The notes under the pieces are model-generated. The model was not told the origin of the DNA. It did not search any database and was given only the letters and a program-made list of their open reading frames with translations. The translations under genes were made by a program, and so were the position numbers. 38,955 nt of DNA from Candidatus Nomurabacteria bacterium RIFCSPLOWO2_12_FULL_44_11 (GTDB lineage: Bacteria; Patescibacteriota; Minisyncoccia; Phycocordibacterales; UBA9973): positions 1 through 38,955 of the forward strand of contig MFVU01000032.1 of the NCBI GenBank assembly GCA_001787125.1. Reading direction: 5' to 3'. Numbering within the stretch: position 1 is the first letter of the stretch; each line of letters starts with the position of its first letter. Shown here one piece after another: positions 28,601 through 31,151 of this stretch.

Positions 28601-29596
28601 TTATATCATGATTCTTAATTTATATGCATTGCCGTGTTTCAATAAACCTAAATATGATTGTTTCGATTCTTTTTTAGGATTTTCCCTAATTCGTTTCAGC
28701 ATTTTCCTTTTTGTTGAAGTTCTTAAAACTCTATGACGCGGAAAATGCACCCAACCCAGGAAGTCTACCCCGGAAGCAAGAGTTTTAATAAAGACCTTAT
28801 CAGGATGCAGGTATATATTTAAATAGCTATTTAAATAAGTATTAATTTTTGGTAACAAATTTTCTAAATATCCTTTATCTTCATTTAAAATCACAAAATC
28901 GTCAGCGTATCTGATGTAATATTTCACTTTTAGTTCCCTTTTCATAAACTGGTCAAATTCATTCATATAAACATTTACCAGAAGCTGGGAAGTTAAATTG
29001 CCTAATGGTAATCCTTTGTTAATCCTCTCTGCGATAGCAGAGTTACTTAACATTGTAGAAAAGCTGTCTATCACCTGTCCTAGGAGCCAGAGAGTGTCGG
29101 TGTCAAGGTTGAACCTTGACAATATCTTCTTTAAAACCTGACGATTGATGTTTGCAAAGAATTTTTTGATATCGCATTTTAAAATCCAGCAAGTGCGAGT
29201 GTTATTTTTGGAAACCTTGCGAAACATTTGCCGAAACCTGTTTATGGCCTTATGTGTTCCCTTCTCGACTCGGCAGGAGTATGAGTCATGAATGAATTTT
29301 GAATCGAAATATTCATATAGTTCTTGATATATCAAATGATGCAACAATCTGTCCCTGACAGTTGCCTTGTGTATCTGCCTGGGTTTAGGGTCCGAAATAT
29401 TGAAGGCAATATACTCCCCATGCTTGTAGGTCTTATTTTTTAGGTCGTTGTGTAAATCAAATATATTGTCCATCAACTTTGCTTGAAATAAAATCACATC
29501 TTTTCTGTTCCTTTTATCACGCAAAAATTCCTGCCAGGCCAACAGCAGTTTTTCTATGGTTATGATATTATCGTAAGTATGAATAAATTGTCTCAT
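28601..29596 (-). CDS. DGR-type reverse transcriptase
   Basis: 331 aa, RT domain only (no maturase, endonuclease or RNase H region). Contains ..DPKPRQIHKATVRDRLLHHL.., the LPLGNLTSQ motif ([I/L]GxxxSQ, typical of DGR RTs), the catalytic YADD in IRYADDFVIL, and GVDFLGW. Confidence 0.9.
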   Translation of the reverse strand: MRQFIHTYDNIITIEKLLLAWQEFLRDKRNRKDVILFQAKLMDNIFDLHNDLKNKTYKHGEYIAFNISDPKPRQIHKATVRDRLLHHLIYQELYEYFDSKFIHDSYSCRVEKGTHKAINRFRQMFRKVSKNNTRTCWILKCDIKKFFANINRQVLKKILSRFNLDTDTLWLLGQVIDSFSTMLSNSAIAERINKGLPLGNLTSQLLVNVYMNEFDQFMKRELKVKYYIRYADDFVILNEDKGYLENLLPKINTYLNSYLNIYLHPDKVFIKTLASGVDFLGWVHFPRHRVLRTSTKRKMLKRIRENPKKESKQSYLGLLKHGNAYKLRIMI

Positions 29597-29966
29597 ATCG
29601 TTTTACCCCCCCCCAGCGCCGACGGCGCTTCTAAAAGCAAAAACGGCCTACACTCTTTGGTTTAAAGTATATAATGATTTCCCTAAAGCGCATCGTTACG
29701 TATTGGGTGGAAAAATTGAGGACTACTTTCTGGGTCTTTTAGAAAATATTTTCATTTCAATTTATCTACCTCCAGAAACAAAAGTTTCTCGCCTCACCAT
29801 AGCAATATCAAAATTGGATGGCATAAAATTCTTTTTACAAATAGCTTGGGAAAACAAATGCATCCCGAATGAAAAGTATTCTACCCTTTCCGAACACTTG
29901 CAAGAAATCGGCAGAATGCTCGGTGGCTGGAAAAAAGGACTTGAAAAGAAAACTCCTCGGCCGTGA
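29579..29966 (+). pseudogene. Avd-like four-helix-bundle protein gene, frame-interrupted at a C9 tract (opposite strand to RT/TR)
   Basis: Track ORF 29703..29966 (..KLDGIKFFLQIAWENKCIPNEKYSTLSEHLQEIGRMLGGWKKGL) matches the four-helix-bundle (23S-rRNA-IVS/Avd-related) family but lacks its N-terminus. The upstream in-frame sequence (..LLKAKTAYTLWFKVYNDFPKAHRYVLGGKIEDYF) continues the homology without a start codon. An ATG at 29579, 7 nt after TGaTATTAT (29563..29571), is in frame only if the C9 run (29606..29614) were C8 or C11. That change would give a 128-aa protein. Confidence 0.6.
29606..29614. repeat. C9/G9 homopolymer at the avd-like/RT junction
   Basis: Nine consecutive C on the + strand. 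On the minus strand the G9 ends 9 nt upstream of the RT ATG (GGGGGGGGGTAAAACGATATG). It is flanked by the hairpin AGCGCC-gac-GGCGCT (29615..29629). Confidence 0.9.
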
Positions 29967-29990
29967 GGTAGAGGAGAAAAACAAGAGTTT

Positions 29991-30097
29991 CGAGAGAACA
30001 CCCGATTGTCGGCGTTCCACGTGTTCGGGTTCTCGACGGAGTTGGCATTGACGTTCCAACCGCCGTCGTTCCAGTTCACGTTCACGGCACGGAGAAC
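29991..30097 (-). repeat. DGR template repeat (TR)
   Basis: 107 nt. The sense (minus) strand encodes VLRAVNVNWNDGGWNVNANSVENPNTWNADNRVFSR with ten AAY codons and 24 adenines in total. It aligns without gaps to 30496..30602. Confidence 0.9.
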
Positions 30098-30392
30098 CAG
30101 TGTTATCGTACATAAGATCATCTGTATCACTGCCGACCCAAGCACAAACTAAATGTCAGGGATCGTGCTGTATTTTATTTTGGACTTAGAAGTCCACCAA
30201 TATTATGCACCAATTCTTGTTATTTTTTGAAAAAACTTTTTATACTCTTGCGTAAGGCAAAAAGAAAACAGCCCAACGCAACTCTCACAAAAAATTTCTT
30301 AAGACCATGACGCGAAAGCCGTAACCGTCGCGTAGCACATGATTTCAAAAACATTGTATCAAATTACAAAATTAAATGAAGTAAAAATAGAA

Positions 30393-30446: not shown

Positions 30447-31151
30447 TCAGCTTGCGGCTGATTCCTGAGGCACTGAGGATACGAGCGATGAATTGCGAGA
30501 GAACACCCGATCGTCGGCGCTCCACGTGAGCGGGCTCTCGACGGAGAGGGCATTGACGTACCAACCGCCGTCGTACCAGTGCACGAGCACGGCACGGAGA
30601 ACGCCGTTCTGGTCGCGAACGTAGAAGATGTTCGCGCGCCCGTCGTGGAGCAAGACGCCCTCTCCGCCGTTCGGCTGAGCCGCCATCATGGCGAAGACGT
30701 CGGTGAGAGCGACTTCCGTCTTACCCTCGCCGATCGCATCGAGGATCGGCTTGTCGACCGAGCGCTTGGTGAGTCGGGAGTAGCGGAGCTCGGTCGCGCG
30801 CCCGGGTTCTTCGATCTTGCCGAGCACCCACGCCCGGAAGTTGTCGCCGAGGTAGCTGATCTTCACCGGTGCCCTGCGGCTGGTGTCGACCACGAACTTC
30901 TCGGAAGCAACGAAGGCCCAGGTGTTCATCGGCGCGATGTAGGTACCGACGAGCTCGAGGAGAGGCGTCGGAGCGGGCGTCGCGACGGGTTCCTCGACAA
31001 CCAACGAAGCGTACATGGTCTCTGCCATGCGGTTACGCTTCGAGTTGACGATCTGTTGCACAAGAGCGGCACTGAAGCCGGCCTTGTCGAGGACCAATGC
31101 AAATTCATGCATCGCTCCACAGCTCATGTCACACACGCGGTCTGCGCTCAT
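30447..31151 (-). CDS. DGR variable (target) protein, 234 aa, VR at C-terminus
   Basis: AGGAG 8 nt upstream of the ATG. The C-terminus ..VLRAVLVHWYDGGWYVNALSVESPLTWSADDRVFSRNSSLVSS.. is the diversified copy of the TR-encoded peptide. No signal peptide or TM helix. The N-terminal ~175 aa has no family that I recognise. Confidence 0.85.
   Translation of the reverse strand: MSADRVCDMSCGAMHEFALVLDKAGFSAALVQQIVNSKRNRMAETMYASLVVEEPVATPAPTPLLELVGTYIAPMNTWAFVASEKFVVDTSRRAPVKISYLGDNFRAWVLGKIEEPGRATELRYSRLTKRSVDKPILDAIGEGKTEVALTDVFAMMAAQPNGGEGVLLHDGRANIFYVRDQNGVLRAVLVHWYDGGWYVNALSVESPLTWSADDRVFSRNSSLVSSVPQESAAS
30496..30602 (-). repeat. DGR variable repeat (VR)
   Basis: 95/107 identical to the TR. 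The 12 differences correspond to TR + strand T (sense-strand A) at 30007, 30015, 30024, 30025, 30030, 30042, 30043, 30055, 30070, 30076, 30081 and 30082. Confidence 0.9.

What the first reader, a model, noticed from the sequence alone, without database searches (positions are those of the whole stretch)
29579..29966. Avd-like accessory gene on the opposite strand, split by a C9 homopolymer that doubles as the G9 tract upstream of the RT start: possible phase switch of the diversifier
A four-helix-bundle (Avd-related) ORF lies between the TR and the RT but is antisense to both.
- The annotated ORF (29703..29966) lacks its first helix and any ATG.
- Family-like sequence continues upstream in frame (..KAKTAYTLWFKVYNDFPKAHRYVLG..).
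- An ATG at 29579 has a leaderless-type promoter (TGaTATTAT + 7 nt), like other genes in this window.
- That ATG is out of frame by one nucleotide across a run of nine C (29606..29614). C8 or C11 would yield a 128-aa protein (MNKLSHIVLPPPAPTALLKAKTAYTLWF...), the normal size for this family.
- The same tract is a G9 run ending 9 nt upstream of the RT ATG, and the two genes would overlap divergently by 18 nt.

Avd is required with the RT for cDNA synthesis in the Bordetella phage paradigm. Slipped-strand length changes here could therefore switch mutagenesis on and off (hypothesis). Alternatively the gene is decayed, or the tract length is a sequencing error.
Basis: partly seen in the sequence, partly recalled or inferred. 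Interest (0 to 1): 0.7.

Follow-up and report, generated by a model that had tools for sequence, protein, structure and literature searches.

The report
Slippery repeat gating a hypermutation gene
A run of nine C's sits just after the start of the helper gene (avd) of a targeted hypermutation system. Its length decides whether the helper protein is in frame, and a repeat of this kind is kept at the same spot across many related ultra-small bacteria, so it looks like a built-in stochastic on/off switch for the mutator.

Summary
C9 (29606-29614) lies between a leaderless promoter/ATG typical of this genome (29563-29581) and an intact Avd four-helix-bundle ORF that is one base out of frame. On the other strand it is a G9 ending 9 nt before the RT ATG.

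- **The tract is a family feature.** 68 repeats with non-triplet units (C6-14, (CT)n or (CA)n) lie at this junction in about 76 related Patescibacteria DGR cassettes. Only 7 lie in the other ~590 kb.
- **Its length varies.** It differs between near-identical strains in five lineages.
- **Frame is not conserved, but the protein is.** Only about 27-33% of alleles are in frame with an upstream ATG, yet the Avd core is under strong purifying selection in both classes (dN/dS ~0.05).

Best reading: a conserved slipped-strand contingency switch on the DGR accessory protein, with the window allele OFF or low. The antisense position of avd is the known CPR "B3" architecture, not a novelty.

Still open: RNA-level slippage or frameshifting, an ATA start at 29595, and a role for the G-run on the RT side. 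No read-level or experimental data were available.

The parts
29606..29614 (.). C9 (+) / G9 (-) simple-sequence repeat, the proposed slipped-strand switch
   Evidence: Read directly. It is the only G/C run of 7 or more in the window. It is C8 in L082, which is otherwise identical over 4 kb. A repeat sits at the same place in about 68 of 76 related cassettes.
29563..29571 (+). Extended -10-like box TGATATTAT, 7 nt before ATG 29579: a leaderless avd promoter embedded antisense in RT codons 9-12
   Evidence: Many genes in the window show the same layout, TGnTATAAT-like box + 6-8 nt + ATG with no SD. The motif with exactly 7-nt spacing occurs in 75 of 105 distinct junctions. RT Ile11 uses ATC 78% of the time against 23% elsewhere in these RT genes, which indicates DNA-level selection.
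29579..29665 (+). Short ORF from the leaderless ATG: 28 aa, reads the tract as PPP, then runs out of frame to a TAA stop
   Evidence: Translation. It is one base out of frame with the Avd core.
29595..29597 (+). ATA codon in frame with the Avd core through C9. It overlaps the RT start (CAT-A), at the position where relatives have ATG.
   Evidence: The window reads ISFYPPPAPTALLK; P0011 and P0021 read MSFYPPP(A/S)APSALLK. Frame classes are tabulated.
29615..29629 (.). Hairpin AGCGCC-GAC-GGCGCT immediately 3' of the C run (5' of the G run on the RT strand)
   Evidence: About 46% of poly-C junctions fold better than shuffles (z < -1.5). Unrelated stems occur in other clades: GAGCACC/GGTGCTC, AACTTTTGCCA/TGGCAAAAGTT, GCACAAGC/GCTTGTGC, AGTGC/GCACT. 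Function unknown.
29583..29966 (+). Avd reading frame: open frame 29583-29963 plus stop, family homology from about 29607, four-helix bundle from 29622
   Evidence: Pfam bAvd and NCBIfam DivGenRetAVD. Model pLDDT 89, four helices. Foldseek matches Bordetella phage Avd 4DWL with TM 0.78/0.90, and the DGR RNP 8UB7. dN/dS about 0.05.
28601..29596 (-). DGR reverse transcriptase, 331 aa
   Evidence: Pfam RVT_1 at 4.3e-24. The identical protein is on 26 or more contigs. Avd is divergent and adjacent to it in 76 of 80 related loci.
29985..30097 (-). Template repeat (TR)
   Evidence: Direct repeat D1. 13 of the 14 mismatches to VR are at TR adenines.
30490..30602 (-). Variable repeat (VR) at the 3' end of the target gene
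   Evidence: L083, otherwise identical, differs at 13 VR positions.
30447..31151 (-). DGR target gene, 234 aa, no Pfam family
   Evidence: ORF list. Pfam and NCBIfam found nothing. GC is 55% against about 40% around it.

Best explanation
The C9/G9 run is a hypermutable simple-sequence repeat (a contingency locus) placed in the first codons of avd, the accessory gene of a Patescibacteria diversity-generating retroelement.

**Proposed mechanism**
- avd is transcribed as a leaderless mRNA from a -10 box embedded antisense in the first 12 codons of the RT gene, and is translated from ATG 29579.
- The reading frame then has to cross the repeat to reach the four-helix bundle.
- Slipped-strand mispairing during replication changes the run by single bases, so cells switch between an in-frame state and out-of-frame states.
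- C8 in this strain gives the 128-aa Avd. C9, as in the window, gives a 28-aa peptide and no Avd, or at most a trickle through an ATA start or frameshifting.
- Avd is needed with the RT for cDNA synthesis in the Bordetella phage paradigm. The switch would therefore keep targeted hypermutation off in most cells and on in a stochastic minority.

**Shown**
- The anatomy described above.
- Conservation of a non-triplet repeat at this exact place across the family.
- Length polymorphism between near-identical strains.
- A mixture of in-frame and out-of-frame alleles.
- Purifying selection on Avd in both classes.

**Inferred**
- The transcription start site.
- That the length changes arise by DNA slippage at high rate and are reversible.
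- That Avd level limits DGR activity here.
For: **Predicted allele exists**
- L082 (GCA_001786965.1) has C8, is otherwise identical over 4 kb, and has a 128-aa bAvd ORF identical to the predicted repair.

**Family-wide repeat**
- Poly-C of 6-14, (CT)n or (CA)n lies between the RT start and the Avd core in about 68 of 76 related species-level cassettes.
- Its 3' end is fixed 34-36 nt before codon Y24 in the window's clade.
- 68 repeats lie at the junction against 7 in the other ~590 kb.
- Every repeat unit is 1 or 2 nt, so each step shifts the frame.

**Hypervariability among contigs with an identical RT protein**
- Window strain: C9/C8. P0138 strain: C9/C8.
- P0159 strain: C9 x3 and C10 x5, plus two A-to-C boundary variants. 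Lengths vary inside both flanking haplotypes, which indicates recurrent change.
- Near-identical pairs: L112/L185 (C11/C10) and L086/L130 (C11/C9).

**Frame is not conserved but the protein is**
- 32 of 104 repeat-bearing junctions have an in-frame ATG 5' of the repeat.
- 20 of 74 are in frame with the conserved leaderless ATG.
- Yet the Avd core has no stops, and dN/dS is 0.04-0.06 for OFF-OFF, ON-ON and ON-OFF pairs.

**The start is real**
- TGnTAnnnT + 7 nt + ATG is the usual gene-start layout in this window.
- It is conserved in 75 of 105 junctions.
- It is backed by synonymous-codon bias in the overlapping RT codons: ATC 78% against 23%.

**The repeat is dispensable for the DGR mechanism**
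- Relatives without a repeat (L038, L041, L057) have a plain ATG-started avd at the same place, which fits a regulatory add-on.

**The DGR is active in this population**
- L083 differs from the other contigs only in its VR, at 13 positions.
Against: - **No read-level data.** All length differences are between assembly consensus sequences. Illumina assemblies can err at long G/C runs, and no comparable homopolymer lay in the compared regions to serve as a control.
- **In-frame alleles are rare within strains.** The 128-aa protein is on 1 contig against 26 for the RT.
- **An ATA-start reading is not excluded.** The majority allele in four strains is the frame that is open to ATA at the RT-start overlap, so a weak non-canonical start rather than a true OFF state is possible.
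- **The repeat may be 5'-UTR in some relatives.** In about 27 more distant junctions a TTG/GTG/ATG lies just 3' of the repeat.
- **Two features are not explained by this model.** These are the hairpin next to the repeat, and the constant closeness of the G-run to the RT ATG, in some clades directly abutting a -10-like hexamer.
- **No link to function was tested.** Whether Avd is required for this RT is taken from the Bordetella phage system (PMC6182149, abstract).
Confidence: 0.6

Rival explanations
1. RNA-level recoding. The genomic tract length is not the switch. Avd is made from out-of-frame alleles by RNA polymerase slippage on the C/G run, or by ribosomal +1/-1 slippage of tRNA-Pro on CCC CCC CCC, which is a PPP stall site. 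This sets a low, fixed Avd dose. The repeat is conserved as a recoding site and the adjacent hairpin acts as a stimulator.
For: - The frame at the DNA level looks unconstrained: about 27-33% in frame, close to one in three.
- Avd is nevertheless under strong purifying selection in out-of-frame lineages.
- A stable hairpin follows the run within 0-2 nt in many clades, like slippery site plus structure.
- From general knowledge, not tested here: CCC-N codons are classical +1 frameshift sites, and long homopolymers cause transcriptional slippage.
Against: - Orthologues need shifts in both directions, since all three frames occur, unlike programmed frameshifting with a fixed direction.
- (CT)n and (CA)n repeats replace poly-C in 16 cassettes and are poor substrates for ribosomal or polymerase slippage, but good ones for DNA slippage.
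- The hairpin is absent from about half of the junctions and from most dinucleotide ones.
- DNA-level length variation does occur.
- This rival is not exclusive of the main explanation.
Confidence: 0.2
2. No switch. The C9 allele is the normal gene. Translation starts at ATA 29595 (or the equivalent ATN overlapping the RT start), the tract simply encodes a conserved PPP at the N terminus, and the upstream ATG is a by-product of the RT His codon on the other strand.
For: - With C9 the core frame is open to ATA 29595, exactly where P0011 and P0021 start with ATG (MSFYPPP...).
- This frame is the commonest among 35 close-clade alleles (19, against 9 and 7), and is the majority allele in four strains.
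- ATA is listed as an alternative initiator in genetic code table 11 (general knowledge).
Against: - The base making ATA rather than ATG lies outside any coding constraint, yet it is A in most alleles regardless of frame.
- This genome starts genes leaderlessly at ATG with no SD, and an internal ATA would have no initiation signal.
- 7 of 35 close alleles are in the third frame with no start at all.
- The embedded -10 + 7 nt + ATG is conserved at synonymous sites.
- A coding PPP does not explain the replacement by (CT)n or (CA)n, nor uninterrupted runs of up to 14.
Confidence: 0.08
3. The repeat serves the RT strand. The G-run (or (AG)n) with its 5' hairpin is an expression or RNA element for the RT: an SD-like purine tract, part of a leaderless RT promoter, or an RT-binding stem-loop at the end of the DGR RNA. 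On this view avd merely tolerates it.
For: - The G-run lies 6-13 nt 5' of the RT ATG in most cassettes. In some clades it directly abuts a -10-like hexamer followed by 6-7 nt and the ATG, for example G10-TATAAT-AGAAAT-ATG.
- The hairpins show compensatory stem changes between clades.
- In the Bordetella phage DGR RNA, an RT-binding stem-loop sits just 5' of the RT gene (bioRxiv 10.1101/2023.10.23.563531).
- L060 has two other G10 runs abutting -10 boxes of unrelated genes.
Against: - The distance to the RT ATG ranges from 5 to 52 nt, whereas the distance to the Avd core is nearly constant.
- (GT)n and (AG)n are not SD-like, and this genome hardly uses SD sequences.
- Relatives without a repeat have normal cassettes.
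- In the window the hexamer after the G9 is only 3 nt from the ATG.
- A dual role, with the same repeat tuning both genes, remains possible.
Confidence: 0.1
4. Artefact or decay: the C9 is a sequencing or assembly error, or avd is a dying pseudogene.
For: - Homopolymers are error-prone.
- The annotated ORF is truncated, at 87 aa.
- Several contigs end at the tract (L227, L228, L230).
Against: - C9 is reproduced in five fetched contigs from NCBI, JGI and ENA assemblies.
- The repeat is conserved across dozens of species.
- The Avd core has no stops and dN/dS of about 0.05.
Confidence: 0.02

Closest known systems
Simple-sequence-repeat contingency loci (phase variation) in Neisseria, Haemophilus, Campylobacter, Bordetella and Mycobacterium, e.g. 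poly-G in hmbR/hpuAB (PMC3786947) and poly-G/C tracts of 7 or more in C. jejuni (PMC4965091)
   Same: - An uninterrupted non-triplet repeat close to the 5' end of an ORF.
- Length differs between close relatives.
- Each step shifts the reading frame.
- The gene stays under purifying selection despite frequent OFF alleles.
   Different: - The gated gene is not a surface antigen, receptor or methylase but the accessory protein of a targeted hypermutation machine.
- The hosts are environmental Patescibacteria, not host-adapted pathogens.
- The repeat is conserved in position across very divergent orthologues while its motif changes (C, CT, CA).
- It also lies just 5' of the divergent RT gene.
- Switching rate and reversibility are not measured.
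CPR-type DGR cassette, architecture B3 = TR-(avd)-RT (Wu et al., NAR 2018, PMC5758913)
   Same: - Target gene with a 3' VR, then TR, then avd on the opposite strand, then RT.
- Patescibacteria host.
- An A-specific TR/VR mismatch pattern.
   Different: The survey describes gene order and orientation only. No repeat, overlap with the RT start or frame problem is mentioned in the text read.
Bordetella phage BPP-1 DGR (avd-TR-brt) and its Avd (PDB 4DWL, RNP 8UB7)
   Same: - Avd four-helix-bundle fold, TM 0.78/0.90.
- RT with the N-terminal D-x-I-(I/T)-T-x-E-x-L-L motif. This comparison with the phage RT is recalled from memory, not tested here.
- Adenine mutagenesis signature.
   Different: - avd is co-directional and upstream of the TR in the phage, and part of its 3' end belongs to the DGR RNA.
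- Here avd is antisense, between TR and RT, overlaps the RT start and carries a repeat.
- Sequence identity is only about 19%.
Phasevarions (phase-variable DNA methyltransferases, e.g. modA; PMC4525171)
   Same: The logic is the same: one hypermutable repeat toggles an enzyme system whose activity then changes many downstream phenotypes.
   Different: - The output here would be DNA sequence diversification of one target gene, not epigenetic regulation.
- No experimental evidence yet.
Programmed frameshifting or transcriptional slippage sites (dnaX, IS3/IS630 transposases; survey of frame transitions, PMC3711429)
   Same: A homopolymer followed by a stem-loop inside an ORF whose downstream part is in another frame.
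   Different: The frame relation is not fixed among orthologues, dinucleotide repeats substitute for the homopolymer, and the DNA length itself varies.

Membership tests
Diversity-generating retroelement (DGR) | TR/VR repeat pair whose differences fall at adenines of the TR | tested here: met
   113-nt repeat with 14 mismatches, 13 of them at TR adenines. VR lies at the 3' end of ORF 30447-31151.
Diversity-generating retroelement (DGR) | Reverse transcriptase next to the TR | tested here: met
   RVT_1 at 4.3e-24. The RT lies 389 nt from the TR on the same strand. A DGR-specific RT clade model was not available: NCBIfam gave only sub-threshold group II, Drt and retron hits.
Diversity-generating retroelement (DGR) | Ongoing diversification of the VR | tested here: met
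   L083 is identical to the window over about 4 kb except for 13 VR positions and a scaffold gap.
Avd (bAvd, PF22296 / DivGenRetAVD) | Sequence match to the family model above its curated cut-off | tested here: inconclusive
   Pfam bAvd scores 56.2 bits against a cut-off of 40 for the C8/repaired protein, which is met. The 87-aa ORF scores 38.6. NCBIfam DivGenRetAVD scores 66.7, below its cut-off of 80.
Avd (bAvd, PF22296 / DivGenRetAVD) | Four-helix-bundle fold like phage Avd | tested here: met
   Model pLDDT 89, four helices. Foldseek matches 4DWL and 8UB7 with TM about 0.75-0.9.
Avd (bAvd, PF22296 / DivGenRetAVD) | Pentamer that binds the RT and DGR RNA and is required for cDNA synthesis | not testable with these tools
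   Needs biochemistry.
SSR contingency locus (phase variation) | Uninterrupted repeat with a non-triplet unit, above the instability threshold, in the 5' coding region or promoter | tested here: met
   C9 begins at codon 10 from ATG 29579. Relatives carry C6-14, (CT)5-21 or (CA)10-13.
SSR contingency locus (phase variation) | Repeat length polymorphic among otherwise near-identical genomes | tested here: met
   Five strain-level comparisons, at the level of assembly consensus only.
SSR contingency locus (phase variation) | Length changes switch the ORF between in-frame and out-of-frame | tested here: met
   C8 gives a 128-aa ORF and C9 a 28-aa peptide. In the P0159 strain, C9 gives 130 aa and C10 is out of frame.
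SSR contingency locus (phase variation) | High-frequency, reversible switching within a clonal population, with a phenotype | not testable with these tools
   No reads and no cultures. Recurrent change within two flanking haplotypes is the only hint.
Programmed ribosomal frameshift site | Same frame relation and shift direction conserved among orthologues | tested here: not met
   Close-clade alleles fall in all three frames, 9/19/7.
Rfam RNA family at the junction | Match to a curated covariance model | tested here: not met
   Nothing at 29560-29640 at E of 1 or below. There were no junction hits in 18 related loci at gathering score.

The most novel reading that the evidence does not exclude
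A large clade of Patescibacteria DGRs carries a dedicated, evolutionarily maintained "switch on the mutator".

- One hypermutable repeat sits in the 18-nt head-to-head overlap of avd and the RT gene. It sets the reading frame of Avd and, on the other strand, the spacing or strength of the RT's own start signals.
- Populations therefore keep targeted hypermutation off in most cells and fire it stochastically in a few.
- This would be second-order evolvability: a contingency locus controlling a diversity generator. It would be the first described regulatory mechanism for DGR activity in the candidate phyla radiation.
Probability: 0.3. Interest if true: 0.85.

Novelty: new variant of a known kind. 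Interest (0 to 1): 0.7.

Why it matters
- **An open question becomes testable.** How DGR mutagenesis is kept in check is largely unknown, and CPR bacteria have few conventional regulators. A repeat-based stochastic switch on Avd would explain how a costly hypermutator is tolerated. It also predicts a measurable link between tract state and VR diversity in existing metagenome time series.
- **Annotation.** About two thirds of these avd genes lack an in-frame upstream ATG. They are called truncated (84-93 aa) or not called at all, so DGR surveys that require Avd will misclassify them.
- **Overlapping signals.** The case shows a promoter and start codon for one gene embedded in the opposite-strand coding sequence of its partner, visible as synonymous-codon bias.

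Tried and rejected
- **Strain-specific metagenome scan.** Exact flanks with N{5,15} found nothing. The broader pattern gave about 30 useful junctions plus about 85 unrelated high-GC hits.
- **PDB by sequence.** Single-sequence and profile searches gave only a chance MOB1 hit. The fold search was needed instead.
- **Rfam.** There is no family at the junction in the window or in 18 relatives. One call failed on a size limit.
- **Sigma-70 consensus scan.** It did not report the extended -10 box because it demands a -35 element. The leaderless layout was established by reading gene starts instead.
- **Hairpin as a universal partner of the repeat.** Rejected: it is present in about half of the poly-C junctions and is weak in the dinucleotide ones.
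- **G-run as a Shine-Dalgarno sequence for the RT.** Not supported as a general role, because distances run from 5 to 52 nt and the genome is largely SD-less.
- **Gene-caller extensions of the RT N terminus through GGG (P0130, P0137, P0220).** Judged spurious, since the conserved M(R/K)QFIH start follows.
- **Programmed frameshifting with a fixed direction.** Rejected, because all three frames occur.
- **Paul et al. 2017.** The paper could not be read: PMC5436926 and its DOI are not held. Prior mention of the repeat there cannot be excluded.
- **Literature searches linking DGR or Avd with SSRs or phase variation.** They found nothing.
Full report
**Anatomy**

The window carries a complete DGR on the minus strand. 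It comprises a 234-aa target gene (31151-30447), a VR at its 3' end (30602-30490), the TR (30097-29985) and a 331-aa RT (29596-28601). TR and VR differ at 14 of 113 positions, 13 of them at TR adenines.

Between TR and RT, on the plus strand, lies an Avd-family reading frame that is open from 29583 to the stop at 29966. Its first canonical start is TTG 29703. Every statement in the finding was verified:
- C9 is at 29606-29614.
- ATG is at 29579, preceded by TGATATTAT (29563-29571) and 7 nt.
- That ATG is one base out of frame and yields a 28-aa peptide.
- The same run is a G9 ending 9 nt 5' of the RT ATG.
- An Avd started at 29579 overlaps the RT gene head-to-head by 18 nt.

**It is an Avd, and the annotated ORF is incomplete**

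- The repaired 128-aa protein passes Pfam bAvd (56.2 bits against a cut-off of 40). The 87-aa ORF does not (38.6 bits).
- NCBIfam DivGenRetAVD aligns from residue 21 but scores below its cut-off.
- An AlphaFold model built on 42 homologues (pLDDT 89) has helices at residues 15-31, 36-61, 65-91 and 97-124, with a disordered N terminus (residues 1-14) that includes the PPP encoded by the tract.
- The model matches Bordetella phage Avd (4DWL, TM 0.78/0.90) and the Avd chains of the DGR ribonucleoprotein 8UB7.
- The 87-aa ORF would therefore lack helix 1 and part of helix 2.

**The antisense position is normal**

In 76 of 80 related loci from species-level genomes, avd lies immediately 5' of the RT on the opposite strand. 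The RTs in these loci are 58-78% identical to the window's RT, and nearly all the genomes are Patescibacteria. This is the published TR-(avd)-RT "B3" architecture, found in 90% of CPR DGRs (PMC5758913).

**The predicted in-frame allele exists**

The window's RT protein is encoded, residue for residue, on at least 23-26 contigs from the Rifle aquifer data sets. Five fetched copies have C9.

Over about 4 kb these sequences differ only in three ways:
- the tract length;
- a scaffold gap in L083;
- 13 VR positions in L083.

The DGR has therefore been active in this population.

**The repeat is a family feature**

Lining up the junctions of all related loci shows a simple-sequence repeat between the RT start and the Avd core in almost every cassette:
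- poly-C of 6-14 in most;
- (CA)n in L014 and L028;
- (CT)n of about 5-21 units in about a dozen;
- no repeat in only six.

The 3' end of the repeat is fixed relative to the protein, 34-36 nt before codon Y24 in the window's clade and mostly 33-45 nt elsewhere. Such repeats are otherwise very rare in these genomes: 68 lie at the junction against 7 in the remaining ~590 kb, and the window has no other G/C run of 7 or more. All repeat units are 1 or 2 nt, so each slippage step shifts the frame.

**Length varies between near-identical genomes**

I looked up three more RT proteins that occur on many contigs.

| Strain (identical RT protein) | Tract lengths seen |
|---|---|
| Window strain | C9 in five fetched contigs, C8 in one (L082) |
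| P0138 | C9 in five, C8 in one (L208) |
| P0159 | C9 x3, C10 x5, and two variants where the A before the run became C (L216, L218) |
| P0135 | C10 in all contigs that share its junction; L226 has the same RT protein, a different junction and C9 |

In the P0159 strain, lengths vary inside both haplotypes of the neighbouring ruvB gene, which points to recurrent change. Its C9 contig carries a 130-aa Avd.

The metagenome scan added two near-identical pairs, L112/L185 (C11/C10) and L086/L130 (C11/C9). Three contigs end at the tract.

These are consensus-level differences. I had no reads, and the compared regions contain no other long homopolymer to serve as an error control.

**Where translation starts**

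Genes in this window typically have a TGnTATAAT-like box 6-8 nt before the ATG and no Shine-Dalgarno sequence, so they are leaderless. The avd box plus ATG fits this pattern.

The unit TGnTAnnnT + exactly 7 nt + ATG is found on the avd strand inside RT codons 6-12 in 75 of 105 distinct junctions, down to 32% Avd identity. Part of this conservation comes from the conserved RT N terminus. However, synonymous sites show selection at the DNA level. RT Ile11 is ATC (antisense GAT of TGATA) in 75 of 96 cases, whereas ATC makes up 23% of other Ile codons in the same genes.

Homologous proteins in the database show two start types:
- MNKLSH..PPP, which uses this ATG;
- M-x(2-4)-PPP, whose ATG overlaps the RT start as CATG.

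In the window the second position is ATA (29595-29597), and with C9 it is in frame with the core. The window allele is therefore one mutation from a normal start in two ways: C9 to C8, or A29597 to G.

**Frame statistics**

| Set | Result |
|---|---|
| 104 repeat-bearing junctions | 32 have an in-frame ATG 5' of the repeat; 42 have no canonical start at all; 27 have a start only 3' of the repeat |
| 74 repeat-bearing junctions with the conserved leaderless ATG | 20 in frame (27%) |
| 35 distinct alleles of the window's clade | 9 in the leaderless-ATG frame; 19 in the ATN-overlap frame (mostly ATA); 7 in the third frame |

The DNA-level frame is thus close to unconstrained. Yet the Avd core has no stops, and dN/dS is 0.04-0.06 whether both, one or neither member of a pair has an in-frame start. 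This rules out decay. It implies that the protein is made often enough, in every lineage, for selection to act on it.

**Interpretation**

The simplest account that covers poly-C, (CT)n and (CA)n alike is slipped-strand length variation of a contingency repeat that gates Avd translation. On this account the window carries an OFF or low allele.

- **RNA-level slippage or tRNA-Pro frameshifting.** Either could add leakiness on poly-C. Neither explains the dinucleotide repeats or the lack of a fixed shift direction.
- **An ATA start.** This cannot be excluded for the commonest frame, but it has no initiation signal in a leaderless, SD-poor genome.
- **A role on the RT strand.** This is suggested by G-runs that directly abut a -10-like hexamer 6-7 nt before the RT ATG in some clades, and by the hairpin next to the run, which recurs with unrelated stems in several clades. 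However, the distance to the RT ATG ranges from 5 to 52 nt, and relatives without a repeat have ordinary cassettes with a plain ATG-started avd. A dual effect on both divergent genes remains an attractive but untested possibility.

**Novelty**

Phase variation by repeats and the B3 cassette are both known. I found no paper connecting DGRs or Avd with repeats, slippage or phase variation in six full-text searches. The key CPR DGR paper (Paul et al. 2017) could not be read.

I rate this a new variant of a known kind: a contingency repeat controlling a diversity generator. It is directly testable with existing metagenome reads.

Noticed in passing
window 30212-30335 (- strand): Sub-threshold match to Rfam RT-9 RNA (RF03080): 30.2 bits against a gathering score of 46.1, E = 0.004 in the local search. 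It has a well-formed 10-bp hairpin (ACGCGACGG-UUAC-GGCUUUCGCGU) and lies between the target gene and the TR. It may be an upstream structured part of the DGR RNA.
   Followed up: partly
window, many gene starts (e.g. 38495, 35882, 33537, 17894, 13402, 8785 on the - strand; 14127, 17955 on the + strand): Most genes have a TGnTATAAT-like box 6-8 nt before the ATG and no Shine-Dalgarno sequence, so the organism appears to use leaderless mRNAs as a rule. The DGR target gene is an exception, with AGGAG 8 nt before its ATG.
   Followed up: partly
window 30447-31151: The DGR target gene is much more GC-rich than its surroundings (about 55% against about 38-40%), has an SD sequence unlike its neighbours, and matches no Pfam or NCBIfam family. 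It may be of foreign origin.
   Followed up: no
window 29563-29581 / RT codons 6-12 (and 103 related RT genes): There is strong synonymous-codon bias in the RT N terminus: Ile11 is ATC 78% of the time against 23% elsewhere, and His6 is CAT 78 times against CAC 3 times. This fits an avd promoter and start codon embedded on the opposite strand.
   Followed up: yes
L083 (window equivalents 30512-30587): A contig otherwise identical to the window has 13 substitutions confined to the VR, plus a scaffold gap inside the TR. This indicates recent DGR activity, and assembly trouble at the repeats.
   Followed up: partly
L060:3404 and L060:5253: The same genome has two further G10 runs, each directly 5' of a -10-like box and an ATG of other genes (G10-TATAAT-AATAGA-ATG; hairpin-G10-TGATATTTTTCT-ATG). 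These may be further repeat-controlled promoters in Patescibacteria.
   Followed up: no
L087, L089, L093-L095, L097-L102 and about 75 more loci: The scan pattern also hit an abundant, unrelated element in high-GC genomes, usually just after stop codons: C7-11, the hairpin GAAGCGCC-TGC-GGCGCTTC, then C7-A-G7 and GGACCGGCGGAGCCGGATCC-like sequence. It looks like a REP-like or terminator-like repeat family that shares the AGCGCC/GGCGCT stem by coincidence.
   Followed up: no
L110, L111, L118, L120, L140, L148, L165, L169, L179, L184, L189: Human-gut metagenome contigs with identical flanks (…gagaaacatca[c/t]gttt C(n) tccttagcgcctgcggcgctt…) carry C7, C8 or C9. This is another length-variable poly-C tract in an unrelated organism.
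   Followed up: no
L227, L228, L230 (contig ends): Three contigs stop at or inside the poly-C tract, as expected if assemblers break on within-sample length heterogeneity or on poor reads there.
   Followed up: no
P0062; P0214; P0130, P0137, P0178, P0198, P0220: Gene callers translate the repeat in both directions. P0062 is an Avd with HTHTHTHT from (CA)n. P0214 is an RT call with an RERERERE N-terminal extension from (AG)n. Several RT calls have GGG(G) extensions 5' of the conserved M(R/K)QFIH start. These are probably spurious extensions.
   Followed up: partly
window 29940-29984 (- strand, just 3' of the TR): A possible stem-loop, CTCCTC-(12 nt)-GAGGAG, lies immediately downstream of the TR and overlaps the avd stop codon on the other strand. 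This is where Avd-binding stem-loops are reported for other DGR RNAs (bioRxiv 10.1101/2023.10.23.563531).
   Followed up: no
L226 versus L222-L225: The same RT protein (P0135) is attached to a different avd junction: catgtttctata-C9-gcagcgcc in L226 against catatttta-C10-tcagcgcc in the others. This suggests recombination or rapid turnover right at the junction.
   Followed up: no
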